In this document: positions 4,819 through 35,071 of the stretch, piece by piece | Numbering within the stretch: position 1 is the stretch's first letter | Layout of the letters: each line of letters opens with the position of its first letter | Assembly (NCBI GenBank): GCA_028718605.1 | Contig: JAQULM010000003.1 | Coordinates: 16,971-80,970, forward strand | Length of the DNA stretch: 64,000 nucleotides | Source of the DNA: Patescibacteria group bacterium | GTDB taxonomy: Bacteria; Patescibacteriota; Patescibacteriia; UBA10025; JAHIVO01 | Direction: 5' to 3' | Position numbers and translations under genes: made by a program | Notes under the pieces: generated by a model | What the model was told of the DNA's origin: nothing | Databases searched by the model: none | Seen by the model: the letters and a program-made list of their open reading frames with translations, nothing else

Positions 4819-5963
4819 TTACTTCCCGAAATTCACCCCGCCGCGGAAACCGATCGGAAACACCCAGAACCAGTCTTTGAGCACCCCGGTGTCGGTGTCG
4901 TAGTCATACACCCGGAGATTCGGGCCGCCGTGGGATGCCGGGGAGGTCATGACCTCGTCAAACCCGTCAGCGTCGACGTCGTTCACGAACAGGTTAACGC
5001 CACCCATGAAATGGGCGTCGTACGCCATGAATGAATCAACTTCTTCGAAATCGCCCCCCTGGTACCGCAACACCTTCACTGTGGAATCGCCAAGCGTCTT
5101 GGGGGCAAGCACCACCTCATTGGAGCCGTCACCGTCCGTATCCCCCACCTGCATGGACAGGGTGCCGCGATAGGAGCTGTCGTACGCCATGAGCCAGTCG
5201 AGGAGCTCCAGCTCGTCACTGCCATTCAGTGTGTAAATGCGGATGTTCGGGCCGCCGTTCAGGAAGGGCGCGACGATGATGTCGTCGTTCCCGTCAGAAT
5301 CCACATCCCCGGTAGCCACCTGCACACCGCCAAAGAAGGTGTCTTGGTACGCGGTAACGCTATCGACTAAATCAAACTCCTGGTCTGCGGCGCTATAGCG
5401 GAATACCTTTACAATGGGCGCCATCGCGCCGCGCGGGGTTACGATGAGCTCGTCAACACCGTCGGAATCCAGGTCACCCGATGCCAGGTTGACCCCGCCG
5501 CGGAACTCCTCGCTGTAGCCAAAAAACCAGTCCATGAGCTCAAATTCCTCTTCAGCGACATTGTACGTATAGATGCGGATGTTCGGGCCGCCGGCGCCGA
5601 TCGGCGTCACGGCAATGTCTTCCTTGTGGTCGCCGTCAAAGTCGCCCGTGGCAAGGTTGACGCCGCCGGTAAATCCCTCGTTGAACGCGAGGGTATTCGC
5701 CATTTCCGTGCCATCGAGCTCAAACGCCTTGATGCGGGACTCAACCCCGGCGCCGGGGGTGATAACAATTTCATTCACGCTGTCTGCGTCAATATCTGCC
5801 TGCGCAACTTCGAGGCCCATGCGCAAACTCTGGTCGTAGGCGAAGAACGACTCGATCTGGGTGCCGTCATCCTCGACGATGCGCACGTTGGGGCCGCCTG
5901 CTGAGGCGGGGGTAACGACGATGCCGAGGGATGGGATCGCGTCTGAAGTCATAAAGGTCCATG
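4819..5963. repeat. ~1.14-kb near-identical direct repeat, copy A (3' part of paralog 1)
   Basis: Identical to 32513..33658 apart from 2 nt near the stop. Antisense ORF-track entries 4949..5173, 5573..5839 and 5626..5904 are identical to 32643..32867, 33267..33533 and 33320..33598. Confidence 0.85.
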
Positions 5964-7407
5964 CAGTTTGCGACTCGTTTCCCAGTTCATCACTTGCCGT
6001 TACCGCAACCTCAACAGTTTCGCGGTAATAAAAGTTATCATCTGGATTGATAGTCACCGTGTAACCGTGGGTGCCATTCCAGCCCATTGTACCACCATAC
6101 CCAGACTCATAAACTCCATCGGTAACCGCCCGATGGCCGTTTATGGTTACGTCAATCGAATAGGTATCAACTTCCCAGAGCTCGTCACTGACGAAAAAGC
6201 TCACGTCAGAATTTGGTGAAACGCCGGTTTCTGCGCTTCCCGGGCTCAAGTTGTCAAACGTCGGCCCTGTTGTATCGGCAACAAATCCGTCCCAAACGCC
6301 TGCGCCATCAACAGTATTCTCGGTACCGATATATAAATGATGGCCATGCTCGACCAATCCATACGCGCGCGTATTGCTGCTATCGCCGAATCCGTCATCA
6401 TTCACCTGGGCAAAGGTGTTACCATCGTACGTCCAGACCTCTGCACCAGTTACGAGGTTGCGCGTGCCAAACGTCAGTGTACTGTTGTACTTGGTAATCG
6501 CAAGCAAGGTCGCGTTATTCAAATCGCCGAAGCCATCATCACCGATCTGGGTAAAAGTACTGCCGTCGTACGTCCAGGCTTCCACGCCGGTCGTCGGGTT
6601 CCATGTCCCAATATACAATACGCTACCGTTTGCATAGAGGGAAAACGGCTCCAAATTATTGATGTCACCAAACCCATCATCGTTGAGCGCAGTCCAGGAT
6701 GTTCCGTCGTATTCATGGAGTTGCCCGCCGGTTACCACATTGCCCGCGCCTGCTAAAAGCTTCCCATTATACTCAACCAGGGAATCGGTGTACAAATTGC
6801 CAGCATCGCCGAATCCGTCATCGTTCACCTGGTTCCAGTCGGTGCCATCGTATGACCAAATCTCAGCGCCAGTCCAAAAATTGTACGAACCAACATACAG
6901 CTTTTCATCAAAGACGAGCATCGAAAAACCGCTAAAGTTGTGCACATCGCCGAAACCATTGGTATTAACCTGGGTCCACACGCTACTGCGGTACCGCCAC
7001 ACCTCGACGCCAGTAATTTCATTGTACGTAGCGACATACAGTGAGCCATTATATTCCGCCATGCTGCTAATAATAACATTGTTTGCATCCCCGAAGCCAT
7101 CAGTATTCACTTGGCTCCAGACATCACCATCATACGCCCACACTTCAGCGCCAGTTGTGGCATTTGATGTGCCGACATAGAGCTGATCAGAGCTCACCAG
7201 CGACATCGTACGGGTGTTATTCACATCACCGAACCCGCCACTGTCACTTTCTGACCAGGTAATTGCAGCGTGCACACTGGCCGGAACCAGCCACGCTGCA
7301 ACAGCAAAAACAGCCACGGCAATGAATGCCCTGACATTGTGTCCATTTCCCATACTCGTATGTTTAATTGTTATCCCTCTCGCATTCAGTATAGTATACA
7401 ATTCCAC
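4819..7407 (-). CDS. large secreted two-propeller protein, paralog 1: N-terminal YDG..W..QVN.DGFGD repeats, Ig-like middle domain, C-terminal FG-GAP-like repeats
   Basis: 862 aa with signal peptide. About 7 N-terminal ~50-aa repeats (..TG.E.W.YDG..W.QVN.DGFGD..N). 7 C-terminal repeats of GGVNLATGDFDGDHKEDIAV type (FG-GAP/integrin-alpha-like). Ends in FRGGVNFGK. Confidence 0.8.
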   Translation of the reverse strand: MELYTILNARGITIKHTSMGNGHNVRAFIAVAVFAVAAWLVPASVHAAITWSESDSGGFGDVNNTRTMSLVSSDQLYVGTSNATTGAEVWAYDGDVWSQVNTDGFGDANNVIISSMAEYNGSLYVATYNEITGVEVWRYRSSVWTQVNTNGFGDVHNFSGFSMLVFDEKLYVGSYNFWTGAEIWSYDGTDWNQVNDDGFGDAGNLYTDSLVEYNGKLLAGAGNVVTGGQLHEYDGTSWTALNDDGFGDINNLEPFSLYANGSVLYIGTWNPTTGVEAWTYDGSTFTQIGDDGFGDLNNATLLAITKYNSTLTFGTRNLVTGAEVWTYDGNTFAQVNDDGFGDSSNTRAYGLVEHGHHLYIGTENTVDGAGVWDGFVADTTGPTFDNLSPGSAETGVSPNSDVSFFVSDELWEVDTYSIDVTINGHRAVTDGVYESGYGGTMGWNGTHGYTVTINPDDNFYYRETVEVAVTASDELGNESQTAWTFMTSDAIPSLGIVVTPASAGGPNVRIVEDDGTQIESFFAYDQSLRMGLEVAQADIDADSVNEIVITPGAGVESRIKAFELDGTEMANTLAFNEGFTGGVNLATGDFDGDHKEDIAVTPIGAGGPNIRIYTYNVAEEEFELMDWFFGYSEEFRGGVNLASGDLDSDGVDELIVTPRGAMAPIVKVFRYSAADQEFDLVDSVTAYQDTFFGGVQVATGDVDSDGNDDIIVAPFLNGGPNIRIYTLNGSDELELLDWLMAYDSSYRGTLSMQVGDTDGDGSNEVVLAPKTLGDSTVKVLRYQGGDFEEVDSFMAYDAHFMGGVNLFVNDVDADGFDEVMTSPASHGGPNLRVYDYDTDTGVLKDWFWVFPIGFRGGVNFGK

Positions 7408-11471: not shown

Positions 11472-13943
11472 TTGGAAGAACGCCTGGCTCCCACGCTTGC
11501 TTTTTGGTACACTGGGAACATTATGGGGCACCCTATGAGCAAAACCTCCAGCCAACTGAATTGGTACGTGCACCCGTCAATCATCTATGGCGTCGTTTTC
11601 GCTTCTGGTGCGGCTGCCTTGATGTATGAACTGCTCTGGATCCGGACGTTAAATTTGCTTTTTGGCGTCAGCAGCTTTGCCGTAACGACTGTCGTCAGTA
11701 TTTTCCTGCTCGGTTTGGGGCTCGGCGGCTATTTTTTCGGCCGCCAAACTGAAAAAACGCCAACTCCGCTCCGCCTCTACGCCTGGATTGAGCTCGGCAT
11801 CGCCGCGCTCACTGGATTGTCATTGGTGGCTGTGGAATACACTCCCCTGTTTTCCGGCCTGCACGCCCTGATCTACAACCACGCAAACCTCTACATACTT
11901 TCACTGGTGCGTCTTCTGATGACATGCGTCATCCTGTTTCCCGCAACTTTCTGCCTCGGAGGAACCGTGCCAATACTCTGCAAGTACTTTATTAAAAAAG
12001 ATGAGACGCTTGGATCAAGGTTTACCCTCTTGTACCTCCTGAACACGCTCGGCGGCTTTACGGGAGCGATTGCCGCTGGTTTCATTACCGTCCGCTTTTT
12101 TGGCACGACGGCATCATACCTCATGGCTATCGCGATGAATGTCGCGATTTTCTTCACCATACGGGCATGCAGGAAAATTTCAACTGCGCCACCGGAAAAA
12201 AGTGAGGACCACGCCGTACCCGACCGCCCTGAACCCCCTAAAAGAAATATGGGCCTGGCACTGTTCATTTCCGGTTTTATTGCCCTTGGTTTTGAAATCG
12301 TATGGATCCGCGTATTAACAAATTTTGGCTCAGGCACTACCTTGTCCTCCACGCTCATTCTGAGCGGTTTCTTGCTCGGGTTTGCAATCGGCAGCGTATT
12401 TGTCGTCCGGCTCATTGACAGGTCAAAAAATGTATTACGGCTTCTTGTAGCCTGTTTTATAACCCTCGGCACCGCCGCAACGCTGTCCTTTCTCGGATTT
12501 GGCATGCTCAACACATATTTCCCTGATCCGTTCATAAGTTACAAAGCCATGCTCGTCGAGTCGTTCGTTGGCTTTGGCTTTTCATTTGTCCTTGCAATTT
12601 TCATGGGGACGATTTTTCCGCTGAGCGTCCGGCTGTATGCCGGTACTGCGGCGATGATAGGCCGAAAATCGGGTTATGCATATTTCATTAATTCCCTTGG
12701 AACGGTAGCCGGGAGCATCACGGCTGGTTTTGGGCTTATCCCGTTTGTTGGAATCAGGAATTCCGGCCTGGTTCTTATCTCGCTGTGCTTTCTGACCGCT
12801 GGCTACCTGGCAATCCGGCTGATCCAGGGCCGCCGGCTCCTGATTGGCATCGCTGCTGTACTCCTAGTGGCTTCCTGCGCTTCGATCATGGCAAGCAACC
12901 AGGTTTTTCACCGCTTGTCTGCGGGGTCGAAGGAACTATTTTATGCTGAAGGATTATCTGCAACTGTTACCGTACAGGAAATTACCATGCTCTCGGAAAC
13001 GTACAAAACATTGAATGTGGACAGCGAAACCGTTGCAAGCACCCATCATACCGGCGTCGTCGATTCAAAATTATTAGCCCATATCCCACTCATGCTTATC
13101 GATGAACCGAAACGGGCAGTCACGGTCGGATACGGTTCGGGCGGAACGAGCCATAGCATGCTCCAGTACGGCTGCGAAGTTATTGCCCTCGAAATTGAGC
13201 GGCAGGTCATCGAGGCCAGCCGGGAATTTACCGACCTCAACCAGCACGCGGAGACAAATCCGAAACTGCAGATCATCATTGATGACGCGCGTAACTACCT
13301 GGCGAATACGGAAACCGCGTTCGATGCGATTGTGACCGATGTCACGAATTTGAAATACAAGAGCAACCCGTACTTATATACGCAGGAGTATTTCGAAGCC
13401 ATGCGAAACGCCCTTGCCCCGGACGGCGTCGCCGCAGCATGGGTACCGCTCGGCGGCCTCTCGTTCAGTGACCTGAAGATTCTCCTGAAAACGTTCCAGA
13501 CTGTTTATCCGCACACGACTGTCTGGTACGATTACTATGACGCCACAGGATTTCTTATTATTACCGGCACGCCTGAAAAAATGCTGTTTGATTTCGAAAA
13601 AGTGCACCAACGCATCCAGCGGGCAACCACCGACCTTGAATCCATCGAGCTCAGTGACGTGTACAGCCTCGGCTCTTTCCTCTTACTCGGGGAGCGTGAC
13701 GTCAAAATGCTCAGTGCCGGCTCGGCGGTCAATACAGACGACCGTCCGGTGCTGGAATTTACTGACCTCGATTCGTATTCGCGTCCCAACCAGTTTAAAA
13801 ACCTGGAGCAGCTCCTGGCATCCCAAAACGAAATACTCGAGAGTTACTATACGTTCAGCTCGAGCGATGAAGAAAAAATACTGCAAGCACTACACAACGG
13901 GCGCACCATCATGAACGGTTATATAAGCGGGATCGCCCCGTAG
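11472..13943 (+). CDS. fused membrane-domain / spermidine-synthase-like aminopropyltransferase
   Basis: 823 aa. About 14 N-terminal TM helices. C-terminal SpeE-like domain (VTVGYGSGGT..IIIDDARNYL..DAIVTDV). Confidence 0.7.
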   Translation: MEERLAPTLAFWYTGNIMGHPMSKTSSQLNWYVHPSIIYGVVFASGAAALMYELLWIRTLNLLFGVSSFAVTTVVSIFLLGLGLGGYFFGRQTEKTPTPLRLYAWIELGIAALTGLSLVAVEYTPLFSGLHALIYNHANLYILSLVRLLMTCVILFPATFCLGGTVPILCKYFIKKDETLGSRFTLLYLLNTLGGFTGAIAAGFITVRFFGTTASYLMAIAMNVAIFFTIRACRKISTAPPEKSEDHAVPDRPEPPKRNMGLALFISGFIALGFEIVWIRVLTNFGSGTTLSSTLILSGFLLGFAIGSVFVVRLIDRSKNVLRLLVACFITLGTAATLSFLGFGMLNTYFPDPFISYKAMLVESFVGFGFSFVLAIFMGTIFPLSVRLYAGTAAMIGRKSGYAYFINSLGTVAGSITAGFGLIPFVGIRNSGLVLISLCFLTAGYLAIRLIQGRRLLIGIAAVLLVASCASIMASNQVFHRLSAGSKELFYAEGLSATVTVQEITMLSETYKTLNVDSETVASTHHTGVVDSKLLAHIPLMLIDEPKRAVTVGYGSGGTSHSMLQYGCEVIALEIERQVIEASREFTDLNQHAETNPKLQIIIDDARNYLANTETAFDAIVTDVTNLKYKSNPYLYTQEYFEAMRNALAPDGVAAAWVPLGGLSFSDLKILLKTFQTVYPHTTVWYDYYDATGFLIITGTPEKMLFDFEKVHQRIQRATTDLESIELSDVYSLGSFLLLGERDVKMLSAGSAVNTDDRPVLEFTDLDSYSRPNQFKNLEQLLASQNEILESYYTFSSSDEEKILQALHNGRTIMNGYISGIAP

Positions 13944-14337: not shown

Positions 14338-14961
14338 TTACTCCGTCTGCGCCGGCACTACCTTGAATGCGTCCATCACAAACGCTGCCGAGGTAGATGC
14401 GTCCTTTTCAATGGCAATGGTATTGCTGCCCTTCTTCAGGGAAATGTTGCCGAGTGAATACCATTTCCATCCCTTGGTGTCTTCGGAAATGTGCGTATAC
14501 CGCAGTACCGCGGTCCCGTTGACGCTGATCGTCGCATTCCGCGCGCCATTCTGGTGCAGGGCGTCATCCGATAGGCGCACTGACATGACATAGGTACCCG
14601 CCTTGATGACTGGCACGGAGTAGGTCACCGTAGCGCCGCCGTCGCCGAGATACGCTTCCCCGCCCCGCGCTGACGTCCCGACGTACGAATACGATCCTTC
14701 ATTGGTCAGCGCTCCGGACTCGCCCTCAACCTGGACTGAACCAATAGGAAACTCTCCCGTGGCATTAGCGTTGGCAGAGTCGGCATTGATAGTGCCCACG
14801 GCCGAATTGGTTGTCGCGGCATTCGAAACGACCGTATTGAGCAGTGTTGTATTCACGGCAGCGGCGTTCGTGTTCGCGGTGCTGGTCGCTTTCCCGCAAC
14901 CAGACAAGACGACAGCAAGTAAAACAACGCTTGCGAACAAAATTGCTTTTTTCATATGCAT
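14338..14961 (-). CDS. lipoprotein with beta-sandwich (carbohydrate-binding-module-like) domain
   Basis: Lipobox LAVVLSGCGK. Thr/Asn-rich linker. C-terminal ~130-aa beta-rich domain. Confidence 0.55.
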   Translation of the reverse strand: MHMKKAILFASVVLLAVVLSGCGKATSTANTNAAAVNTTLLNTVVSNAATTNSAVGTINADSANANATGEFPIGSVQVEGESGALTNEGSYSYVGTSARGGEAYLGDGGATVTYSVPVIKAGTYVMSVRLSDDALHQNGARNATISVNGTAVLRYTHISEDTKGWKWYSLGNISLKKGSNTIAIEKDASTSAAFVMDAFKVVPAQTE

Positions 14962-15541: not shown

Positions 15542-18112
15542 CTATTTCCCGAAATTCACCCCGCCGCGGAATCCTTCCGGGAATGCCCAGAACCACGATT
15601 TCAACACGCGGGTGCCGGATTCCATGTCGTACACACGGACATTCGGGCCACCGAGGGAGGCGGGCGAAGTCATCACCTCGTCAATGCCGTCCCCGTCTAC
15701 GTCAGCGAGAAACAGGTTCACCCCGCCGCGGAACGCTTCGTCGTACGCCATGAACCAATCCATCAATGCGAGCGAATTATTTTCGTAACGGTAGATACGC
15801 ACGTTCGGGCCGCCCAACGACTGGGGAACGAGGGTTATTTCCCCCTTGCCATCGCCGTTCACGTCACCGACGGACATGGAGAGCGTGCCGCGGTACGTGT
15901 CTTGGTATGCCATGACCCAGGTCAAGAGCTCGAGGTCACCGTCAGCGTTCACGGTATACACGCGGATATTCGGGCCGCCATTCAGGTAGGGGGAAACGAT
16001 GACGTCGTCCGCACCATCGCCGTTGATGTCGCCCGTCCCGAGCTGTACGCCACCATGGTACGCCGACTGGTATGCCATGACGCTTGTCGTCAATTCAAAC
16101 TCGCCCCGTGAGGCGCTGTACTTGAAAACGCGCACGTCGGGGCCACCCTGGCCGCGCGGCGCGGTTATGATTTCGTCGATACTATCACCATCCAGATCCC
16201 CGGCAACCACGTTCACGCCGCCGCGGAACGCAGCATCATAGGCAAAGAACCAGTCAGTGAGGTCCAGCCCATCACCCGCCGCATTGAGCGAGTAGATGCG
16301 CACGTTCGGGCCGCCTGCGGATATCGGAGCGACGGCAATGTCTTCACGGTCGTCGCCGTCAAAGTCACCGGTTGCCACGGTCACGCCGCCGGTGAAGCCT
16401 TCATTGAACGCGAGCGTCGAAGCGATCTCGGTACCGTCAAGCTCAAATGCCTTGATGCGGGACTCAACCCCCTGGCCCGGCGTCACGACAATCTCATTTA
16501 CTGAGTCAGCGTCAATATCCGCCTGCGCAACCTCGAGGCCCATGCGCAACGACTGGTCATAGACGAAGAAGGATGAAATCTGGGCGCCTGCCTCGTCAAC
16601 AACGCGCACGTTCGGGCCGCCCTTGGATGCGGGAGACATGACAATGCCCAACGACGGCCGATCAGCCGTTGTGGTGAATTCCCACGACGGCGTACTCGCA
16701 TTCCCCCGTGCATCACTCACTGTCACGCTCACCGCTACGGGAGTGCCGTAGCCGTACCCACTGCTGGAATTTATTACCACGTGCAGGCTCCCGTCTTCAT
16801 TCGCGGTGACCGTCCCGAAATAGCCATCTTCAAACTGCCCAGCGCTCACCGCACGGTGGCCGGCCACGCTGACACCAAGCGTTGCGCTGTCAACATCATA
16901 CACCGCATCCGTCAGGGTGAAGGAAATGGCTACGCGGGGATCTACTCCGCGGTCACCGCCCGCGGGAGACTGCTCACTCGCCACTGGGCCGACGCCGTCA
17001 GGGAGGGATGTTTCCCAGATCTCCGTGCCACTATTCATGCCCGCCGTCCCAACGTAGAGTACCCCGCCGATCGTCGTCAGCATTGAGGAGCTAAAATTTT
17101 CGTGGTGTCCGAAGCCGTCCTCATTAACCTGCTCCCATGACGATCCGTCATACGCCCACAGTTCGGTGCCGGTAGTGGGATTCGTCGTGCCCGCATACAG
17201 CGTATGGTTATAATCAACTAAAGAAAATACGTCATAATTATTCGAACCGTCGCCAAACCCGCCGCTGCGCACCTCGGTACACGCCGTCCCGTCGTACGCC
17301 CACACTTCCCCGCCATCGGTCGAATTCCGCGTGCCGATAAAGAGTTGCCCGTCAAAAACCTGTACGTCAATGAATCCTAAGTTATCGGCATTGCCAAACC
17401 CGTCGGTGCACACCTGTGACCAGTCAGTACCGTCGTATTCCCACAGTTCGGCGCCTGTTCCCGGCGCTGCCCTGAGGGTACCGATGAACAGGTGGCTTCC
17501 GTACTCCTGCATGCTCATGCAGTAGGCATTGTTGGCATCGCCGAAGCCGTCCTCGTTCACCTGCGACCATGCATCGCCGTCGTACGCCCACATCTCGCAC
17601 CCGGCAACTTCATTCGTCGTGCCGGTGAAAAGGATATCGTCATATATAAACAGATTATACGACATCGTATTGAGTGGGTCGCCGAAGCCGTCCTCGTTCA
17701 CCTGCTCCCATGACGATCCATTATACGCCCACAGTTCGGTCCCGGTTACGTCATTGACCGTGCCGACGTACAGCATGCCTTCGAACACTTCGACGCTCGC
17801 CGCTTCAACATTATTTCCGTCGCCGAAGCCGTCCTCGTTCACCTGCTCCCATGACGATCCATCGTAGCGCCAGACCTCAGCGCCCGTCTCCCAGTTCGTG
17901 ACGCCCGTATAGAGGTCGTCATCGTACTCAACGAGCGAATACGAGATAGTATTAAACGAATCGCCGAAGCCGTCCTCATTACTCTGCGTCCAGGCAAGGC
18001 TCTGGGCACTGGCAATGCTTGGGACCATGGCCCAGACCGCAAAAAAACCCAGTGCAACAAGGCCTGCTACAATATAAACACCGCTGCTTCGCATTGGTAG
18101 TGATTGCTGCAT
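15542..18112 (-). CDS. large secreted two-propeller protein, paralog 2 (diverged copy)
   Basis: 856 aa with the same architecture as paralogs 1 and 3. The C-terminal FG-GAP-like region is roughly 75-80% identical to the other copies. Ends in FRGGVNFGK. Confidence 0.8.
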   Translation of the reverse strand: MQQSLPMRSSGVYIVAGLVALGFFAVWAMVPSIASAQSLAWTQSNEDGFGDSFNTISYSLVEYDDDLYTGVTNWETGAEVWRYDGSSWEQVNEDGFGDGNNVEAASVEVFEGMLYVGTVNDVTGTELWAYNGSSWEQVNEDGFGDPLNTMSYNLFIYDDILFTGTTNEVAGCEMWAYDGDAWSQVNEDGFGDANNAYCMSMQEYGSHLFIGTLRAAPGTGAELWEYDGTDWSQVCTDGFGNADNLGFIDVQVFDGQLFIGTRNSTDGGEVWAYDGTACTEVRSGGFGDGSNNYDVFSLVDYNHTLYAGTTNPTTGTELWAYDGSSWEQVNEDGFGHHENFSSSMLTTIGGVLYVGTAGMNSGTEIWETSLPDGVGPVASEQSPAGGDRGVDPRVAISFTLTDAVYDVDSATLGVSVAGHRAVSAGQFEDGYFGTVTANEDGSLHVVINSSSGYGYGTPVAVSVTVSDARGNASTPSWEFTTTADRPSLGIVMSPASKGGPNVRVVDEAGAQISSFFVYDQSLRMGLEVAQADIDADSVNEIVVTPGQGVESRIKAFELDGTEIASTLAFNEGFTGGVTVATGDFDGDDREDIAVAPISAGGPNVRIYSLNAAGDGLDLTDWFFAYDAAFRGGVNVVAGDLDGDSIDEIITAPRGQGGPDVRVFKYSASRGEFELTTSVMAYQSAYHGGVQLGTGDINGDGADDVIVSPYLNGGPNIRVYTVNADGDLELLTWVMAYQDTYRGTLSMSVGDVNGDGKGEITLVPQSLGGPNVRIYRYENNSLALMDWFMAYDEAFRGGVNLFLADVDGDGIDEVMTSPASLGGPNVRVYDMESGTRVLKSWFWAFPEGFRGGVNFGK

Positions 18113-23174: not shown

Positions 23175-24269
23175 CTAAGCGAGAATATACGCGGAAGCGG
23201 GACCCTTGCCAACTTGTTTGATTGTCCCCAGTTGCTTCAAACGCTGCAAGTGTAGCTGCGCGGTTCGCCTTGGGCAGCGCAGAATATCCACGACATCCTT
23301 CACGGTAATGCGCTGGTTCGTGTCTAAAAAATCCAAGATAGAAAGCTGATCATGGCCGAGGTATTGCTGCTGGCGCCCCTTGGTATCCACTTTTCGCACT
23401 GCCAGGTTTTGGACCAACCGCTGCACATTTTGAATTTCCACGGCAAATCCATTAACGAAGTACTCCAGCCACGGCGTCAGCTCCACCCGCCGTTCATCAT
23501 AGGTGGCGCCGGTATTGATGGCCGCATAGTACGCTGGCCGGTTCGTATTGTAGAAGTCCTCAAGCACGAAAAGCTTCCGAAAGTCGTATCCCCGCTGGTA
23601 GAGCACGAGGGTAGCGATCGCCCGAGCTGTACGGCCATTACCGTCGGCAAAGGGGTGGATGGCGGCGATTTCTTGGTGGATAATTCCCGCGGTAATGACT
23701 GGGTGTACCTCCGCATGGCTTGCCTGTCCAACCCATGCCAAAAGGTCTTGGACCAAACCTCGTACTCGCTTGGCATCGGGTGCGGTGTACATAACCTGCG
23801 GCGGGCTACCAACGCGACGGCGAATGACGTATACAGGCCGAGTTCGGTACTTGCCGCTCTGCTTTCCTGGCAGTGTATTTGCAGTAACCAGTGCATGGAT
23901 ACGGAGAAAAACCTTCTCTGTCAGGGGACGCTTTATGGCAACCACCTGCTCAATGTACCGCATCGCCTGCAAGTAATTTTCTACTTCGTGAATATCACGC
24001 TCCGGCGCATCCACCGTACGGCGTATTGACAGTGCTTCTACCTGCTGCAGGTTGAGCATGTTACCCTCGATGGCCGTAGAGCTATGGGTCATGCGAATGC
24101 GGGCCTGCCGACGCAGGCGGAGCTCTTGGCGCGGTAAAATTTTGGCACGCGTAATCACTGACCGAGCTTCGGCAATTACCGTAAGCTTTCGGACAATGCT
24201 GTTGGTGAGTGTGTACTTCGGCTTGAACATAGGCACGTACAGTATACCACCATACGAATAATCGCGCAA
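23175..24269 (-). CDS. Fic/DOC family protein (AMPylation-type) with C-terminal winged-helix
   Basis: Canonical Fic motif HPFADGNGRTAR. Fic_N-like TAIEGN motif. C-terminal HTH-like region. Confidence 0.85.
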   Translation of the reverse strand: MRDYSYGGILYVPMFKPKYTLTNSIVRKLTVIAEARSVITRAKILPRQELRLRRQARIRMTHSSTAIEGNMLNLQQVEALSIRRTVDAPERDIHEVENYLQAMRYIEQVVAIKRPLTEKVFLRIHALVTANTLPGKQSGKYRTRPVYVIRRRVGSPPQVMYTAPDAKRVRGLVQDLLAWVGQASHAEVHPVITAGIIHQEIAAIHPFADGNGRTARAIATLVLYQRGYDFRKLFVLEDFYNTNRPAYYAAINTGATYDERRVELTPWLEYFVNGFAVEIQNVQRLVQNLAVRKVDTKGRQQQYLGHDQLSILDFLDTNQRITVKDVVDILRCPRRTAQLHLQRLKQLGTIKQVGKGPASAYILA

Positions 24270-24420
24270 GAATCGCGCATCTATCGCGCAATGATTATCC
24301 CCCGCCCCCTCCCCATCCCCTTCTTCCTCCTTCTAACTTCCAAACCTACTTCATACTACCTCCAACCCACTTCTGTACTGAAGCACCCGCCGGCACAGTA
24401 CGCTTTCTCAACATTCTGGC

Positions 24421-24786
24421 TTATTGTTTTTTGAACTGCAGGGAAATGGAATTAACGCAGTAGCGGGTATCCTTCTCAGTCATCCGCTCGCCGGTAAAGA
24501 CGTGCCCGAGGTGCGCCCCGCAGCGCTCGCAGGTGATCTCCGTGCGCACGCCGTCGGCGTCCGGCACGCGCTTGACCGCGCCAGACACCGCATCGTCAAA
24601 GCTCGGCCACCCGCACCCGGCGTCGAACTTGTCATCTGACCTGAAGAGCTCGGCTCCGCACCGCTTGCAGACGTACGTCCCCCGCTCGAAAAATTGGTCA
24701 TACTGCCCGGAATAGGGAGCTTCCGTACCCTTGCGCACGATCACCGCTTCCTCTTCCCTGGTCAATTGATTAAATTTTTTCTGCAT
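24421..24786 (-). CDS. msrB: peptide-methionine (R)-S-oxide reductase MsrB
   Basis: CxxC...CxxC zinc site and catalytic CGWPSF...RTEITCERCGAHLGHVF. Confidence 0.85.
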   Translation of the reverse strand: MQKKFNQLTREEEAVIVRKGTEAPYSGQYDQFFERGTYVCKRCGAELFRSDDKFDAGCGWPSFDDAVSGAVKRVPDADGVRTEITCERCGAHLGHVFTGERMTEKDTRYCVNSISLQFKKQ

Positions 24787-24999
24787 GCCTGAAGTATACC
24801 GTCCGTATCCGCCACTGGCAAAACGTGTAATTACAAAAAACCGCCTCGAAAAGCGACGGCATTCTTCCTCCCTGCCCGCTTCGCCCATGCGAAGCACCCG
24901 CCTGAATCGCCGTTTCGGCGGGCAGGTGGCGGGCGGGCCTGAAATCGGCATTATACCCTTCTTTAAGTATTTTTTTTTACTATACTACTATTCAATTAT

Positions 25000-25830
25000 T
25001 TAATTATGTCTCGGAAATAACCCCCTCCAACTACGATTACTGACATGAAAAATTGGTAGTGAATTATTTGGACAATTATGCTGAAACACAACCATAAGTC
25101 CGCAATTTCCATGCCCAGCAGGTTCTTTACTATTTGCCTTTTTACAATAGTTTCTCAATCGATCTTTTTCAGAACCGGTAAAATGTTGACATTCATTTGA
25201 AAAAAAATTATCTGAATCATTTAGCTCATGACCTGATATTACAACTAACTCAGTCTCGGAATTAATTCGCTCACGTGCCTGTCGAGTTGAAGCAGTGACA
25301 CACAAATAACATCTACCAACACCAGTAACTAACATGGAAGTTGTTTTACCCCAGGCATCACAAACTTGATCCCCACTTCCGCAAAAATCATCGACAAATA
25401 CTATAGTATCCTCCGGTCCAAGTTTCTGTCCAATAATTTGACTAAGAGGAATAAACCACTCTTTATATTTTTTACTTTCGAGATTATTTGCTCTTCTAAA
25501 TTGATAAAGCATACTATCTCCACTCTCACCAGCACTTCCTGTTGAGTATGCAACAAATCGCCAACGTCCCGTAAGTTTCGAATGATCGTCATTCCATCCT
25601 GAAATTGATCTCAAGCATTGTTGATAAAGAGAATTTATCCGTTCCATGCTATAAAATTCCACTACATCTAGAGTACGCGCTGCTAAATCTTTATCTCGCG
25701 CTCGAAATTGATTAATCCAGTTATCGATTGAATATCGATCAATACTTGATCTATAAAGGCGAAATTGAGATAACCATGTATCTATTCGCCTTGAATCAAT
25801 TTGGGTATTTTGTTGATTGGGACTTTTCAC
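25000..25830 (-). CDS. hypothetical protein with PRTase-like (phosphoribosyltransferase type I) motif
   Basis: 276 aa. TIVFVDDFCGSGDQV matches the PRPP-binding loop pattern (hydrophobic-DD-x-x-SG). It overlaps the upstream gene by 4 nt. Confidence 0.45.
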   Translation of the reverse strand: MKSPNQQNTQIDSRRIDTWLSQFRLYRSSIDRYSIDNWINQFRARDKDLAARTLDVVEFYSMERINSLYQQCLRSISGWNDDHSKLTGRWRFVAYSTGSAGESGDSMLYQFRRANNLESKKYKEWFIPLSQIIGQKLGPEDTIVFVDDFCGSGDQVCDAWGKTTSMLVTGVGRCYLCVTASTRQARERINSETELVVISGHELNDSDNFFSNECQHFTGSEKDRLRNYCKKANSKEPAGHGNCGLMVVFQHNCPNNSLPIFHVSNRSWRGLFPRHN

Positions 25831-26804
25831 AATTCATTTCCTCGCCCTAACTTTTTTAACACATCACGTATAATAATTGAGAGTTTTTCTAGTTTTTCCC
25901 ACAACTTGTTCTGACCATAATATTGTTCCGTATCGATATTTTTCAAGCGAACTAATAATTTATCAACGTCTTGAGTTAATTTAGTAGCGTTCGATGCCGT
26001 TCTTGCTGATTCAATATTTAAATAATCTGGCGTCAAGCTAGGTTCGTCGGTAAATTCCTTGAATAATTTTGAAATTTCCTTCTTCTTTTTTGCCTTAACT
26101 GCATTATTAATATATTGCTTTACAATACGAAAATCTGTTATTGATTTAATACCTTTCACCTCGTACTTCTTAAGCATGGCAACCGTAACATGATCGTGAA
26201 GTTGTCTCTTTTTAAACCATGGGAAACTATTTACATTTCGATCATGCAATATTGGGTATAGCTCGATAAAAAAATCTGAATTTATACGTTTTTTTGGATC
26301 AGGATCAAGCATTAAGTCTTGAAATTTTCTCGGGAACGAAAGCAACTTCATGCACCTACTAATAAGCGACTCATTTAAACTTGTTAACACTGAAAGTCGG
26401 TGAACATTTTTATCTTTTACTTCGTTAATTAATAACTCCAGTTTTAGAGCTGTCGGCATTAGTTCCCAATCCATTCGTAACTTATGAATTTGGAACATCG
26501 TAATAATATTCCATACAAGTGTTGGTTCTGCCACTTCATTTGCTGGAATCGAATCGAGATTTAGCTCTTTTGCACATGTCCACCTTCTTTGACCATCCAG
26601 AATAGTAAAATCTCCGGTTTTTGAATCTTTATACACAGTGAGCGGCACAAGTATACCAACTTTCTTAATCGAATCTCGTAAAACTTTCATATCTTCCTCG
26701 TCGAAAAGTAGTCGAGGATTATGCGGATTCGGCTTTAAGTTTTTTGTCGGAATATTCTGAAGTCCAATTACTTGAGTGGAATTTTTTTGCTCAATGACAC
26801 TCAT
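25827..26804 (-). CDS. ParB/Srx-superfamily (DGQ[QH]R / DUF262-like) N-terminal domain protein
   Basis: KPNPHNPR and FTILDGQRRWTCAKELNL resemble the ParB nuclease-domain core (hP.NPR ... GERRwRAA) and the DGQQR/DGQHR motif of DndB/DUF262 proteins. Helical C-terminal half. Confidence 0.6.
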   Translation of the reverse strand: MSVIEQKNSTQVIGLQNIPTKNLKPNPHNPRLLFDEEDMKVLRDSIKKVGILVPLTVYKDSKTGDFTILDGQRRWTCAKELNLDSIPANEVAEPTLVWNIITMFQIHKLRMDWELMPTALKLELLINEVKDKNVHRLSVLTSLNESLISRCMKLLSFPRKFQDLMLDPDPKKRINSDFFIELYPILHDRNVNSFPWFKKRQLHDHVTVAMLKKYEVKGIKSITDFRIVKQYINNAVKAKKKKEISKLFKEFTDEPSLTPDYLNIESARTASNATKLTQDVDKLLVRLKNIDTEQYYGQNKLWEKLEKLSIIIRDVLKKLGRGNEL

Positions 26805-26815
26805 ATTTTTTTATC

Positions 26816-27625: not shown

Positions 27626-27666
27626 ATCCCCATTCTCCTCTTATTTCCCAAAAAAATCAACCACAC

Positions 27667-32512: not shown

Positions 32513-33658
32513 CTACTTCCCGAAATTCACCCCGCCGCGGAAACCAACCGGAAACACCCAGAACCAGTCTTTGAGCACCCCGGTGTCGGTGTCGTAGTCA
32601 TACACCCGGAGATTCGGGCCGCCGTGGGATGCCGGGGAGGTCATGACCTCGTCAAACCCGTCAGCGTCGACGTCGTTCACGAACAGGTTAACGCCACCCA
32701 TGAAATGGGCGTCGTACGCCATGAATGAATCAACTTCTTCGAAATCGCCCCCCTGGTACCGCAACACCTTCACTGTGGAATCGCCAAGCGTCTTGGGGGC
32801 AAGCACCACCTCATTGGAGCCGTCACCGTCCGTATCCCCCACCTGCATGGACAGGGTGCCGCGATAGGAGCTGTCGTACGCCATGAGCCAGTCGAGGAGC
32901 TCCAGCTCGTCACTGCCATTCAGTGTGTAAATGCGGATGTTCGGGCCGCCGTTCAGGAAGGGCGCGACGATGATGTCGTCGTTCCCGTCAGAATCCACAT
33001 CCCCGGTAGCCACCTGCACACCGCCAAAGAAGGTGTCTTGGTACGCGGTAACGCTATCGACTAAATCAAACTCCTGGTCTGCGGCGCTATAGCGGAATAC
33101 CTTTACAATGGGCGCCATCGCGCCGCGCGGGGTTACGATGAGCTCGTCAACACCGTCGGAATCCAGGTCACCCGATGCCAGGTTGACCCCGCCGCGGAAC
33201 TCCTCGCTGTAGCCAAAAAACCAGTCCATGAGCTCAAATTCCTCTTCAGCGACATTGTACGTATAGATGCGGATGTTCGGGCCGCCGGCGCCGATCGGCG
33301 TCACGGCAATGTCTTCCTTGTGGTCGCCGTCAAAGTCGCCCGTGGCAAGGTTGACGCCGCCGGTAAATCCCTCGTTGAACGCGAGGGTATTCGCCATTTC
33401 CGTGCCATCGAGCTCAAACGCCTTGATGCGGGACTCAACCCCGGCGCCGGGGGTGATAACAATTTCATTCACGCTGTCTGCGTCAATATCTGCCTGCGCA
33501 ACTTCGAGGCCCATGCGCAAACTCTGGTCGTAGGCGAAGAACGACTCGATCTGGGTGCCGTCATCCTCGACGATGCGCACGTTGGGGCCGCCTGCTGAGG
33601 CGGGGGTAACGACGATGCCGAGGGATGGGATCGCGTCTGAAGTCATAAAGGTCCATGA
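32513..33658. repeat. ~1.14-kb near-identical direct repeat, copy B (3' part of paralog 3)
   Basis: See copy A at 4819..5963. Identity ends at ...aaggtccatg, after which the two sequences diverge. Confidence 0.85.
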
Positions 33659-35071
33659 AAGTGAACTCTGGTTGGCCCCTGAATCGCTGACAGTAGCGGT
33701 AATCGAAACCAACTGGCCGTAATAGAAATCAGCCCCTGGTTGGATGGTTATTTCGTATGACCACGTTTCGTTCTGTGTAATCGTCCCGGAAAAATCTTCC
33801 GTTAATTCACCGTCGACGATTGCATACACGCCATCGACGAGCACATCCAAACTCGCGCTGTCAACGTCGAGGACTGCGTCAGTAATTGAAAATGTAATAT
33901 CAGTGCCCCGCGCTACGCCCCGAGCGGCATTTGCCGGAACAAGGTCGCTGACTACCGGGCCGGTACTGTCCTCGAGTTCTCCTTTCCACATTTGCGTCCC
34001 ATCGGAGTCGCTGTTCGTTCCAGCGTACAATATGTTATCGTACGCCGATAAAAGCGAGGTACTGTACCCATCGGTGCCGCCAAAACCATCCTCGTTTACC
34101 TGTGCCCATGAAGAACCGTCATATGACCACATCTCAGTGCCGGTCACCGCGTTCGTTGTGCCGGCGTATAAATGATGGGTAAGCGTCTCGAGGGAATACA
34201 CACCGGTATTGTGGTCATCATCAAACCCCGCATGCGATACGCGGGTGAATTCCGCACCGTCATACTTCCACACTTCTCCGCCGTTGGTCGGGTTCTCCGT
34301 GCTGATGTACAGCGATCCGCCGAACTCCTGCAAATCCATGAAACCTTCATTGGTTGCGTCACCAAAGCCGTCGGTTCCCACCATGGACCAGTCCGACCCA
34401 TCATACTTCCACAGCTCGGCGGGCTGGGTATCTTTATACGTGCCAACATAGAGTTCCCCCTGATACTCTTCCGAGGCCATACAATACGTATTCGAGTGAT
34501 CCCCGAAACCATCGGTATTAACTTGCGTCCAAGAATCGCCATCGTATTCCCAGAATTCGCAGCCAGTAGAAAAATTGCCGGTCGCGGCGTAGAGTTTATC
34601 GTTAAAAACCGTTACATCCATCACGATATAGTTTTCCGCATCGCCAAAACCGTCCGTATTGGCCTGGGACCACGTAGTGCCATCGTACGCCCAAACCTCG
34701 GCCCCAGTAATGAGGCGCTGGGTTGCGACGTACAGCTTGCCGTCATATACGGCAAGTCCGGGGCCCTCAACATTCATTGCATCGCCAAATCCATCGGTAT
34801 TGACCTGGGTCCACGTTGATCCATCAAGCCGCAGCACCCGAGTGCCGTCATTCCAGTTGGAAGTAGCAGTATAGAAATGGCCCTCGTATTCAGCAAGCGA
34901 GTATACAATAAGATTACCGGCATCGCCGAGGCCGGTCGTGCTTGACTGCGCCCACGTTATATCCTGGGCGTGTGCAATATTCGGAATGAGCACGCACGCA
35001 AACATACCACCCACGATCAAACGCAGAGCAACTGCAATGCCTGCATGGTGTTGAGCATGTAATTGTCCCAT
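32513..35071 (-). CDS. large secreted two-propeller protein, paralog 3
   Basis: 852 aa. The N-terminal repeat region is diverged from paralog 1. The C-terminal ~380 aa are identical to paralog 1 except for 1 residue. Confidence 0.8.
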   Translation of the reverse strand: MGQLHAQHHAGIAVALRLIVGGMFACVLIPNIAHAQDITWAQSSTTGLGDAGNLIVYSLAEYEGHFYTATSNWNDGTRVLRLDGSTWTQVNTDGFGDAMNVEGPGLAVYDGKLYVATQRLITGAEVWAYDGTTWSQANTDGFGDAENYIVMDVTVFNDKLYAATGNFSTGCEFWEYDGDSWTQVNTDGFGDHSNTYCMASEEYQGELYVGTYKDTQPAELWKYDGSDWSMVGTDGFGDATNEGFMDLQEFGGSLYISTENPTNGGEVWKYDGAEFTRVSHAGFDDDHNTGVYSLETLTHHLYAGTTNAVTGTEMWSYDGSSWAQVNEDGFGGTDGYSTSLLSAYDNILYAGTNSDSDGTQMWKGELEDSTGPVVSDLVPANAARGVARGTDITFSITDAVLDVDSASLDVLVDGVYAIVDGELTEDFSGTITQNETWSYEITIQPGADFYYGQLVSITATVSDSGANQSSLSWTFMTSDAIPSLGIVVTPASAGGPNVRIVEDDGTQIESFFAYDQSLRMGLEVAQADIDADSVNEIVITPGAGVESRIKAFELDGTEMANTLAFNEGFTGGVNLATGDFDGDHKEDIAVTPIGAGGPNIRIYTYNVAEEEFELMDWFFGYSEEFRGGVNLASGDLDSDGVDELIVTPRGAMAPIVKVFRYSAADQEFDLVDSVTAYQDTFFGGVQVATGDVDSDGNDDIIVAPFLNGGPNIRIYTLNGSDELELLDWLMAYDSSYRGTLSMQVGDTDGDGSNEVVLAPKTLGDSTVKVLRYQGGDFEEVDSFMAYDAHFMGGVNLFVNDVDADGFDEVMTSPASHGGPNLRVYDYDTDTGVLKDWFWVFPVGFRGGVNFGK

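What the first reader, a model, noticed from the sequence alone, without database searches (positions are those of the whole stretch)
5964..7407. Unrecognised N-terminal repeat module (..TG.E.W.YDG..W.QVN.DGFGD..N, ~50 aa x7) in the large secreted proteins
The N-terminal halves of all three paralogs are built from a regular repeat with invariant YDG, W, QVN and DGFGD positions. I cannot place this repeat in a named family. It looks like a beta-propeller blade, roughly Kelch- or BNR-like in length. This propeller is coupled to a second, integrin-alpha-like FG-GAP propeller. The protein ends in a fixed GGVNFGK motif with no TM helix, LPXTG motif or obvious sorting signal. This repeat may be an undescribed blade family, and the C-terminal motif may be a new surface-retention signal.
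Basis: seen in the sequence. Interest (0 to 1): 0.55.

Follow-up and report, generated by a model that had tools for sequence, protein, structure and literature searches.

The report
Uncurated seven-bladed propeller repeat family
The repeats are real and fold into a seven-bladed beta-propeller that no curated protein family captures, although thousands of secreted proteins from uncultivated microbes carry it; the "mystery" C-terminal motif is just the last structural strand that closes the second propeller.

Summary
Three paralogous secreted proteins of a Patescibacteria (CPR) MAG each carry exactly seven 47-aa repeats. AlphaFold2 folds them into a seven-bladed, four-stranded, Kelch-like beta-propeller (pLDDT 96).

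No Pfam or NCBIfam model reaches its cutoff. The nearest are TIGR04534 (ELWxxDGT repeat, half-model matches of 10-30 bits against a cutoff of 65) and DUF6242.

The repeat is not rare. A profile of the 21 units finds 14,385 protein clusters, mostly with 7 or about 14 units, in extracellular proteins of many bacterial and archaeal lineages. Every family-wide conserved column recurs in all seven blades, so this is a symmetric binding scaffold, not an enzyme.

The C-terminal FRGGVNFGK is not a sorting signal. It aligns in register with the first strand (F-x-G-G-V-N-L-A) of the six internal FG-GAP repeats, and it supplies the strand that the first FG-GAP blade lacks (velcro closure).

Inferred function: a surface binding protein with a fast-diverging N-terminal head and a conserved calcium-binding FG-GAP base. 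Other Patescibacteria proteins fuse that same base to L,D-transpeptidases and other wall enzymes, so it may be the real envelope-retention module.

Interest is modest: an uncurated family of a known fold.

The parts
4819..7353 (-). Paralog A, complete gene (844 aa from M19; the ORF runs on to a GTG at 7407, which is probably not the start)
   Evidence: ORF list and translation. It is 100% identical over 844 aa to the public protein P0121, 'Ig-like domain-containing protein [Patescibacteria group bacterium]'.
7267..7353 (-). Sec-type signal peptide of A (MGNGHNVRAFIAVAVFAVAAWLVPASVHA | AITW)
   Evidence: Read directly from the sequence: a basic n-region, a hydrophobic core and an A-x-A site. 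B (ASA|QS) and C (AHA|QD) have the same layout. No lipobox Cys in A or B. This is inference from the sequence; no predictor was run.
6274..7266 (-). Seven 47-aa repeats of A, forming a seven-bladed beta-propeller. Unit: W-x-Q-V-N-x-D-G-F-G-D-x-x-N-(12)-L-Y-x-G-T-x-N-x-x-T-G-x-E-x-W-x-Y-D-G.
   Evidence: The AF2 model has pLDDT 96.2. Leave-one-protein-out profile: 359 bits against at most 7.1 bits for shuffles.
5947..6276 (-). Big_5 bacterial Ig-like domain of A (aa 378-487), the linker between the two propellers
   Evidence: Pfam PF13205, 29.9 bits against a cutoff of 23.6. It is an all-beta segment in the full-length AF2 model.
4822..5925 (-). FG-GAP/VCBS seven-bladed propeller of A (aa ~495-862). 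Six blades carry a D-x-D-x-D-G-type calcium loop.
   Evidence: Pfam FG-GAP and FG-GAP_3 both above cutoff. Repeat parsing gives periods of 51-56 aa. The AF2 full-length model has pLDDT 91.4.
4822..4848 (-). C-terminal FRGGVNFGK: the first (inner) strand of an FG-GAP repeat. It completes blade 1 of the FG-GAP propeller (velcro closure).
   Evidence: In-register alignment with the six internal 'F-x-G-G-V-N-L-A' strands, while the first blade starts without that strand. Residues 811-813 of 815 are a strand in the AF2 model, and the last pLDDT block is 85. Homologues show the same strand at their ends.
16997..18004 (-). Seven-unit propeller of paralog B (gene 15542..18112)
   Evidence: seven units, 65-77 bits each.
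15545..16648 (-). FG-GAP propeller of paralog B, ending in FRGGVNFGK
33968..34966 (-). Seven-unit propeller of paralog C (gene 32513..35071)
   Evidence: seven units, 58-80 bits each.
32516..33619 (-). FG-GAP propeller of paralog C, ending in FRGGVNFGK. It lies within a segment whose DNA is nearly identical to that of A.

Best explanation
SHOWN.
- The flagged stretch encodes the N-terminal half of an 844-aa secreted protein of a Patescibacteria (CPR) bacterium. It contains a Sec signal peptide, a seven-bladed beta-propeller made of seven 47-aa Kelch-like blades, and most of a Big_5 Ig-like domain.
- Each blade has four strands (W-x-Q-V; the A strand; L-Y-x-G-T; E-x-W-x-Y). The G-F-G-D turn sits in the loop that links one blade to the next.
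- The C-terminal half is a seven-bladed FG-GAP/VCBS propeller with six D-x-D-x-D-G calcium loops.
- Both propellers appear to close velcro-fashion. The N-terminal strand ITWSE supplies the fourth strand of the last N-terminal blade. The C-terminal FRGGVNFGK supplies the first strand of FG-GAP blade 1.
- The C-terminal motif is therefore a structural strand, not a sorting signal.
- The N-terminal repeat belongs to a very large, uncurated propeller family. It is a remote relative of ELWxxDGT repeats, DUF6242 and Kelch. It occurs as a portable extracellular module of 7 or about 14 blades.

INFERRED.
- The protein is a non-enzymatic surface binding protein.
- The conserved FG-GAP propeller is the base. 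It holds the protein on the cell envelope or wall, probably in a calcium-dependent way.
- The Ig domain is a spacer.
- The fast-diverging N-terminal propeller is the outward-facing ligand-binding head. Specificity would lie in the variable loop residues between the structural repeat positions.
- Three paralogs with different heads would give three binding specificities, plausibly for host or partner cell surfaces in an epibiotic lifestyle.
For: Fold:
- AF2 on a 100-sequence alignment gives pLDDT 96.2 and pTM 0.92, with seven blades of four strands and a short turn at GFGD.
- The full-length model has pLDDT 91.4.
- Foldseek against PDB returns only seven-bladed or other propellers: LGI1 EPTP, WD40, BamB, Kelch and PLL lectins.

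Family size and modularity:
- The unit profile finds 14,385, 6,043 and 1,202 clusters at E<=1e-3, 1e-10 and 1e-30.
- Among fetched proteins, 174 of 312 have exactly 7 units, with a second mode at 11-14. The modal period is 47-48 aa.
- Partner domains are all extracellular: DUF11, Big_5 plus dockerin, T9SS C-terminal domain, CFI-box-CTERM, He_PIG, IPT/TIG, flagellin N and C.

Non-enzymatic scaffold:
- Every column conserved at >=70% across 92 diverse members falls on the same phase positions in all seven blades (W1, G8, F9, G10, N14, L27, Y28, G30, T31, N33, G37, W41, G45).
- No conserved column is specific to one blade.

C-terminal strand.

Variable head and conserved base:
- Across 12 full-length family members, mean pairwise identity is 69% for FG-GAP, 49% for the N-terminal propeller and 44% for the Ig domain. 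FG-GAP is the more conserved in 97% of pairs.
- A and C share a 1,144-bp DNA segment with 2 mismatches covering the FG-GAP half, while their heads are 44% identical.

FG-GAP as an envelope module:
- In other Patescibacteria proteins the same module is fused to wall-related and other enzymes. By my count of the 120 listed hits, these are L,D-transpeptidase YkuD (about 40), FN3 (13, most with a purple-acid-phosphatase N domain), NAGPA (9), S8 peptidase (7), M23 peptidase (3) and polysaccharide deacetylase (3).
- These proteins have a signal peptide and no obvious other anchor.

Literature: an essential envelope protein with a VCBS domain in a cultivated Saccharibacterium was speculated to bind host glycans (PMC10633639).
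Against: - There is no direct functional evidence for binding, for surface retention or for a ligand.
Velcro pairing of the last strand is therefore inferred from repeat register, DSSP and pLDDT, not measured as contacts.
- The FG-GAP fusions could equally mean that FG-GAP binds host wall glycans rather than the cell's own envelope. The roles of head and base could then be reversed.
- Higher conservation of the FG-GAP half could partly reflect gene conversion among paralogs rather than functional constraint.
- The neighbouring genes are housekeeping genes and give no functional hint.
- The near-identical 1.1-kb segment sits in a MAG, so an assembly artefact cannot be fully excluded.
Confidence: 0.6

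Rival explanations
1. The N-terminal propeller is a multivalent lectin. The repeated polar and aromatic motif (W, Q, N, D-G-F-G-D, N, Y-D-G) would form up to seven equivalent sugar-binding pockets between blades, as in the fucose-binding propeller lectins.
For: - Foldseek hits include the seven-bladed Photorhabdus lectins PLL2, PLL5 and PHL (TM 0.64-0.67) and the Aleuria lectin AAL.
- Conserved residues recur in every blade, which is what repeat lectins show.
- Relatives carry dockerins, CBM-like domains and other glycan-associated partners.
Against: - The family-wide conserved residues are mostly G, F, L, Y and W, typical of core and turn positions.
- The acidic residues of DGFGD and YDG fall below 70% conservation in the wider family.
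- Sequence identity to the lectins is 10-11%. Their Foldseek E-values are no better than those of WD40 or BamB.
Confidence: 0.15
2. The three proteins are S-layer or envelope lattice components rather than adhesins. The two propellers and the Ig domain would be the building blocks of a surface array.
For: - The proteins are secreted, have no anchor, are multi-domain all-beta proteins and occur as several paralogs.
- Relatives in Actinobacteria and Geothermincolia combine 14 such blades with IPT/TIG and DUF5719 domains in proteins of more than 1,000 aa.
- From my own knowledge, archaeal S-layer proteins often contain propellers and Ig-like domains.
Against: - There is no match to any S-layer family in Pfam or NCBIfam.
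- S-layer proteins are usually single and abundant. They do not normally come as three paralogs that share an identical base but have heads only 44% identical.
- There are no expression data.
Confidence: 0.1
3. One reading: the fixed C-terminal GGVNFGK is a new sorting or surface-retention signal recognised by a dedicated sortase-like or secretion system.
For: - The nonapeptide FRGGVNFG(K/Q) is identical in at least 13 full-length or partial orthologues from different Patescibacteria.
- It sits at the very C-terminus, and no other anchor is evident.
Against: - It is in register with the first strand of the six internal FG-GAP repeats, and blade 1 lacks exactly that strand.
- It is modelled as a strand with pLDDT of about 85.
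- Distant homologues end in the equivalent but divergent strand, followed by 0-6 extra residues. Some FG-GAP modules end at a different strand.
- When the FG-GAP module is N-terminal, as in the L,D-transpeptidase fusions, the protein ends in the enzyme domain with no such motif.
- No ORF with a sortase-like TLxTC motif is in the window, and no sorting-domain model matches.
Confidence: 0.04
4. The N-terminal propeller is an enzyme, such as a glycoside hydrolase, lyase or cyclase of propeller fold.
For: - A few relatives give weak hits to GH43, BNR_2 and the F510_1955 glycosylhydrolase models.
- Foldseek hits include the propeller glycoside hydrolases 5mum and 5mul and OXG-RCBH 2ebs.
Against: - No blade-specific conserved residue exists across 92 members, so there is no asymmetric active site.
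- The hits to enzyme models are marginal and cover one or two blades only.
Confidence: 0.04

Closest known systems
ELWxxDGT repeat (NCBIfam/TIGRFAMs TIGR04534)
   Same: - The repeat length is the same: the model has 47 positions and the unit here is 47 aa.
- The half-unit L-Y-x-G/A-x-x-N/D-x-x-x-G-x-E-L/V-W-x-x-D-G-S/T is shared. The matches cover model positions 1-23.
- 23 of 92 family members hit the model at E<=0.01, with a best E-value of 6.8e-14.
   Different: - The window proteins score 10-30 bits against a curated cutoff of 65.
- The second half of the unit (W-x-Q-V-N-x-D-G-F-G-D-x-x-N) does not match the model.
- PGAP does not name these proteins as ELWxxDGT proteins.
DUF6242 (Pfam PF19755), whose member Bt3727 co-purifies with the Bacteroides BAM complex
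   Same: - It is an extracellular beta-propeller with blades of similar length.
- 37 of 92 relatives of the window domain hit the model, with a best E-value of 7.6e-11.
- 21 of 92 hit the NCBIfam BamI_Bacteroidota model.
   Different: - The window proteins themselves do not hit it at E<=1.
- The matches in relatives cover only about two blades (model positions ~124-217 of 217).
- The propeller described for that Bacteroides complex (BamH in the preprint) is a six-bladed lipoprotein confined to Bacteroidetes (bioRxiv 10.1101/2025.01.31.636011). The link from Bt3727 to BamH is my inference; the passages I read do not state it.
- Here there are seven blades, no lipid anchor, and the host is a Patescibacterium.
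Kelch-type propellers (Pfam Kelch families, KIB1-4, Rax2)
   Same: - The blades are four-stranded and 44-56 aa long.
- The order of conserved elements is the same: hydrophobic-Y-x-G-G/T, then x-V-W/Y-x-Y-D, then W (sequence).
- Some relatives hit PF24681, PF03478 and PF12768.
- Keap1, NS1-BP and designed Kelch (SAKe) structures are among the Foldseek hits.
   Different: - The window proteins hit no Kelch model.
- G-T-x-N replaces the G-G doublet.
- The inter-blade loop carries the distinctive D-G-F-G-D-x-x-N turn, which Kelch repeats lack.
Integrin alpha / bacterial FG-GAP (VCBS) propellers, for the C-terminal half
   Same: - There are seven FG-GAP repeats with D-x-D-x-D-G calcium loops.
- The Pfam matches are above cutoff.
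- The domain is extracellular.
   Different: - Six of the seven blades carry a calcium loop. Integrins have three or four (my own knowledge).
- There is no thigh/calf legs or TM anchor.
- In Patescibacteria this module is shuffled among wall enzymes.

Membership tests
ELWxxDGT repeat (TIGR04534) | Whole-protein score at or above the curated cutoff (65 bits) | tested here: not met
   A scores 10.4 bits, B 25.4 bits and C 30.0 bits. The A propeller alone scores 26.5 bits.
ELWxxDGT repeat (TIGR04534) | Match along the whole 47-position repeat model | tested here: not met
   Only model positions 1-23 are matched.
ELWxxDGT repeat (TIGR04534) | Tandem repeats of about 47 residues | tested here: met
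   The period is 47 aa. The modal period is 47-48 aa in 312 relatives.
Kelch repeat (Pfam Kelch families) | Significant match to a Kelch profile | tested here: not met
   No Kelch family appears at E<=1 for A or B. Only 4 of 92 relatives hit PF24681.
Kelch repeat (Pfam Kelch families) | Four-stranded antiparallel blades of about 44-56 aa forming a closed propeller | tested here: met
   The AF2 model has seven blades of four strands each, pLDDT 96.2.
DUF6242 (PF19755) | Score at or above the Pfam gathering cutoff (29 bits) over the domain | tested here: not met
   The window proteins give no hit. Relatives give 28-32 bits over the last ~90 model positions only.
FG-GAP / VCBS propeller (PF01839, PF13517) | Score above the Pfam gathering cutoffs | tested here: met
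   FG-GAP scores 39.2 and 44.5 bits against 22.1. FG-GAP_3 scores 52.6 and 51.8 bits against 26.9.
FG-GAP / VCBS propeller (PF01839, PF13517) | Seven repeats with D-x-D-x-D-G-x-x-D/E calcium-binding loops | tested here: met
   Six complete repeats, plus a split seventh made of the N-terminal three strands and the C-terminal FRGGVNFGK. Six acidic loops are present. Calcium binding itself was not tested.
Known C-terminal sorting signals (LPXTG/sortase, T9SS CTD, PEP-CTERM, CFI-box-CTERM) | Signature motif followed by a hydrophobic helix and a basic tail, or a recognisable sorting domain | tested here: not met
   The protein ends ...GFRGGVNFGK with no hydrophobic tail. The only LPXTG-like strings are NPTTG inside the repeats. 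No sorting-domain model matches.
Big_5 bacterial Ig-like domain (PF13205) | Score above the Pfam gathering cutoff (23.6 bits) | tested here: inconclusive
   A scores 29.9 bits and passes. B scores 20.8 bits, just below. C was not scanned against Pfam.

The most novel reading that the evidence does not exclude
The 47-aa 'DGFGD' blade defines a large extracellular propeller family with no curated model (over 14,000 clusters at 50% identity, bacterial and archaeal). It would merit its own family. In Patescibacteria it is mounted on a calcium-binding FG-GAP propeller that acts as a previously unrecognised, non-covalent cell-wall or envelope retention module. That module is shared with L,D-transpeptidases, peptidases and deacetylases. 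Swapping heads on this common base would give these ultrasmall epibionts a repertoire of host-binding specificities.
Probability: 0.25. Interest if true: 0.5.

Novelty: new member of a known kind. Interest (0 to 1): 0.3.

Why it matters
The fold is an ordinary seven-bladed propeller, so nothing categorically new is here. Two points have practical value.

1. A very large family of extracellular proteins from uncultivated bacteria and archaea is currently labelled 'hypothetical', because no curated model covers this blade. A single new profile would annotate thousands of proteins.

2. Patescibacteria depend on attachment to host cells, and few of their adhesins are known. Secreted two-propeller proteins with a shared conserved base and rapidly diverging heads are reasonable candidates. 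The FG-GAP module, which recurs on their wall enzymes, is a testable candidate for how anchor-less proteins stay on these cells.

The result also removes a false lead: the conserved C-terminal motif needs no new sorting machinery.

Tried and rejected
- Pfam and NCBIfam scans of the window proteins gave no confident family for the N-terminal repeat.
- A PDB sequence search with the unit profile gave nothing below E=0.5.
- Foldseek against PDB gave only generic propellers for the domain model and generic tandem-propeller proteins for the full-length model. Neither gave a specific functional clue.
With the single protein it found only one distant archaeal locus.
- The look-up of encoding contigs had no record of protein A.
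- Literature searches for 'ELWxxDGT' and for 'Patescibacteria' plus 'FG-GAP' found nothing.
- The enzyme hypothesis was rejected because no blade-specific conserved residues exist.
- The sorting-signal hypothesis was rejected on repeat register and homologue endings.
- Neighbouring genes are housekeeping: BipA, a DEAD-box helicase, methyltransferases, an ABC transporter and RecX. They give no operon-level hint.
- The FG-GAP-only search did not list the query's own protein or its closest orthologues. Its word prefilter is evidently incomplete, so the counts from it are lower bounds.
Full report
**What is there.** The window holds three large paralogous ORFs on the minus strand: A 4819..7407, B 15542..18112 and C 32513..35071 (translations). 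Public copies exist. A is 100% identical over 844 aa to 'Ig-like domain-containing protein [Patescibacteria group bacterium]', which starts at M19 of the ORF. C is 'hypothetical protein PHF98_05140' and B is 'VCBS repeat-containing protein'. All three lie on one 155,724-bp MAG contig. Each protein begins with a Sec-type signal peptide ending in A-x-A (read from the sequence).

**The repeat.** Cutting at the G-F-G motif gives exactly seven units per protein.
- The period is 47 aa throughout A and C (one 46-aa unit in A). In B it is 47-49 aa.
- The 21 units align with 53% mean column identity. Consensus: WxQVNxDGFGDxxNxxxxSLxxYxxxLYxGTxNxxTGxExWxYDGxx.
- Only one Gly is strictly invariant. F9, G10, N14, L27, G37 and W41 are at least 90% conserved.
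- A profile built from the B and C units alone scores A at 359 bits, with seven hits of 47-73 bits. The best of 200 shuffles scores 7.1 bits.
- No other ORF of the window contains the repeat.
The stated coordinates also include the signal peptide and most of an Ig-like domain. Their lower end (5964) is the point where A and C become identical in DNA.

**Fold.** AlphaFold2 on a 100-sequence alignment gives a very confident model, with pLDDT 96.2 and pTM 0.92.
- It has seven blades of four strands, with a short turn at GFGD in each inter-blade loop.
- An N-terminal strand (ITWSE) precedes the first GFGD. I read it as the fourth strand of the last blade, from repeat register and DSSP.
- Foldseek against PDB finds only generic propellers: LGI1 EPTP, BamB, WD40, Kelch and designed Kelch, and the PLL/PHL/AAL lectins. 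E-values are 1e-10 to 1e-7, TM is at most 0.71 and identity at most 16%.
- A PDB sequence search with the unit profile finds nothing significant.

**Is it a named family?**
- Pfam gives no hit on the N-terminal 380 residues of A or B at E<=1.
- NCBIfam gives only sub-threshold TIGR04534 (ELWxxDGT repeat) matches of 10.4, 25.4 and 30.0 bits against a cutoff of 65. These cover model positions 1-23 of 47, that is the L-Y-x-G-T...G-x-E-x-W-x-Y-D-G half of the unit.
- Across 92 diverse relatives, 37 hit Pfam DUF6242 (best 7.6e-11), 23 hit TIGR04534 (best 6.8e-14) and 21 hit NCBIfam BamI_Bacteroidota. A handful hit KIB1-4, Kelch, NHL, BNR_2 or Reg_prop.
- Where checked, the DUF6242 matches were marginal and covered only about two blades. 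The TIGR04534 matches cover only half of that model.
- The DUF6242 member Bt3727 co-purifies with the Bacteroides BAM complex. The propeller component described there (BamH) is a six-bladed surface lipoprotein (bioRxiv 10.1101/2025.01.31.636011). Equating Bt3727 with BamH is my inference.
- So the blade is a remote relative of known propeller repeats, closest to ELWxxDGT. No curated model captures it, and annotation pipelines leave these proteins as 'hypothetical'.

**How common is it?**
- The 47-position unit profile, searched against 1.84 billion cluster representatives, finds 14,385 proteins at E<=1e-3, 6,043 at E<=1e-10 and 1,202 at E<=1e-30.
- Among the proteins fetched here, 174 of 312 have exactly seven units, with a second mode at 11-14. 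The modal spacing is 47-48 aa. In seven-unit proteins the propeller usually starts around residue 36, directly after a signal peptide.
- Named sources include Patescibacteria, Actinobacteria/Geothermincolia, Bathyarchaeota, Kiritimatiellae, Thermodesulfovibrionales, Desulfococcaceae and a Thermoplasmata archaeon.
- Partner domains are extracellular: DUF11, Big_5 plus dockerin, He_PIG, IPT/TIG plus DUF5719, PKD, T9SS sorting domain, CFI-box-CTERM, and even flagellin N and C domains.

**No active site.** In the 92-sequence alignment, every column conserved at 70% or more maps to the same unit positions in all seven blades: W1, G8, F9, G10, N14, L27, Y28, G30, T31, N33, G37, W41 and G45. No conserved column is blade-specific. 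The acidic residues of DGFGD and YDG are below 70% family-wide. This fits a symmetric structural scaffold whose specificity lies in variable loops. It argues against an enzyme, and somewhat against a lectin that uses the motif itself.

**The C-terminal half and the 'fixed' end.**
- Pfam FG-GAP and FG-GAP_3 both pass their cutoffs.
- Parsing the repeats shows six complete FG-GAP units of 51-56 aa. Each starts F/Y-x-G-G-V-N/Q-L/V-A and continues with a D-x-D-x-D-G loop.
- The domain begins with a unit that lacks this first strand (IVVTPASAGGPNVRIV...). The protein ends with FRGGVNFGK, which is exactly that strand and nothing more.
- In the full-length AF2 model (pLDDT 91.4), residues 811-813 of 815 (V-N-F) are a beta-strand, and the last block has pLDDT 85.
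- Orthologues from other Patescibacteria keep FRGGVNFG(K/Q). More distant FG-GAP proteins end in the equivalent but diverged strand, sometimes with a few extra residues: FLGGVNLGQ, YQGGVNVALGVR, QKAGADVAVANF, FSGGVNVGSIKINK, FRGGVNLSVSR. Some end at another strand. FG-GAP modules placed N-terminally have no such end.
- There is no hydrophobic tail, no LPXTG and no sorting-domain match. No ORF with a sortase-like TLxTC motif is in the window.
- The motif is therefore a closure strand. Its conservation is structural.

**Functional model (inferred).**
- Across 12 full-length family members, the FG-GAP half is consistently more conserved (mean 69%) than the N-terminal propeller (49%) or the Ig domain (44%).
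- Within this genome, A and C share 1,144 bp with two mismatches. The segment runs from inside the Ig domain to the stop codon and has sharp boundaries. Their N-terminal propellers are 44% identical.
- The FG-GAP module alone recurs in many other Patescibacteria proteins. By my count of the 120 listed hits it is fused to L,D-transpeptidases (about 40), FN3 domains, most with a purple-acid-phosphatase N domain (13), NAGPA phosphodiester glycosidase (9), S8 peptidases (7), M23 peptidases (3) and polysaccharide deacetylases (3). These proteins have signal peptides but no other evident anchor.
- In the wider family, the N-terminal propeller is attached to whatever anchoring device the lineage uses: T9SS domain, dockerin, CTERM boxes or flagellin.
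- The most economical reading is a conserved envelope- or wall-binding, probably calcium-dependent FG-GAP base, an Ig spacer, and a variable outward-facing propeller head. That makes a family of surface binding proteins with different specificities.
- A Saccharibacteria study lists an essential envelope protein with a VCBS domain and speculates on host-glycan binding (PMC10633639). A Gracilibacteria study detected VCBS proteins in metaproteomes (PMC11452946).
- None of this is direct evidence. The roles of base and head could be reversed, and an S-layer role is not excluded.

**Verdict.** The repeat is real, and its identification as a propeller blade is right. It is an uncurated but very widespread member of the propeller-repeat world, closest to ELWxxDGT repeats. 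The proposed C-terminal retention signal is an ordinary velcro strand. Interest is modest (0.3). The useful outputs are a seed for a new family model and a testable idea that the Patescibacteria FG-GAP module is an envelope-targeting domain.

Noticed in passing
window 4820-5963 vs 32514-33657 (minus strand): A and C share 1,144 bp with only two mismatches (4852, 4854). The segment starts abruptly inside the Ig-like domain and ends at the stop codon (TAA vs TAG). The upstream halves of the genes are only 44% identical in protein, and B is 68% identical in DNA over the same region. This looks like recent gene conversion or cassette exchange of the FG-GAP half. In a MAG, an assembly artefact cannot be excluded.
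   Followed up: partly
window ~23175-28782: A low-GC island (GC 0.42 against about 0.52 for the window). It encodes a PRTase-CE protein, a ParB_N-domain protein and a D12 N6-adenine DNA methyltransferase in a row, with a Fic/DOC protein and an acyltransferase_3 nearby. It looks like a horizontally acquired defence or conflict island.
   Followed up: partly
proteins P0060, P0067, P0210: Some flagellins carry this same seven-unit propeller between their Flagellin_N and Flagellin_C helices (in P0210 the first unit starts at residue 144 and the last ends at residue 468, of 609). It would then be the surface-exposed variable domain of the filament.
   Followed up: partly
proteins P0314-P0430: In Patescibacteria the FG-GAP propeller module is repeatedly fused to enzymes, several of them wall-active: YkuD L,D-transpeptidase, M23, S8, polysaccharide deacetylase and NAGPA. 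These proteins have a signal peptide but no other evident anchor. This suggests a lineage-specific envelope-targeting role.
   Followed up: partly
window 11472-13943 (+): An 823-aa polytopic membrane protein with a C-terminal spermidine-synthase-like methyltransferase domain (Pfam Spermine_synth plus a weak MFS_1 hit) lies between paralogs A and B.
   Followed up: no
window 14338-14961 (-): A 207-aa protein with CBM_35 and Golvesin_C-like carbohydrate-binding matches lies between the 11472-13943 gene and paralog B. It is another possible glycan-binding surface protein.
   Followed up: no
window 7354-7407 (-): The mechanical ORF of paralog A starts at a GTG 18 codons upstream of the Met used in the public annotation. 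The extension (VELYTILNARGITIKHTS) precedes the signal peptide and is probably not translated.
   Followed up: partly
L001:242-1633 (Thermoplasmata archaeon MAG JAGHAD010000126.1): This archaeal contig encodes a relative of the N-terminal propeller (29% identity over query residues 5-362). The blade family therefore crosses the bacteria-archaea divide.
   Followed up: no
proteins P0233, P0234, P0240, P0277, P0312: Giant proteins of 2,000-4,000 aa carry 20-27 copies of the unit, that is three or four consecutive propellers of this family.
   Followed up: no
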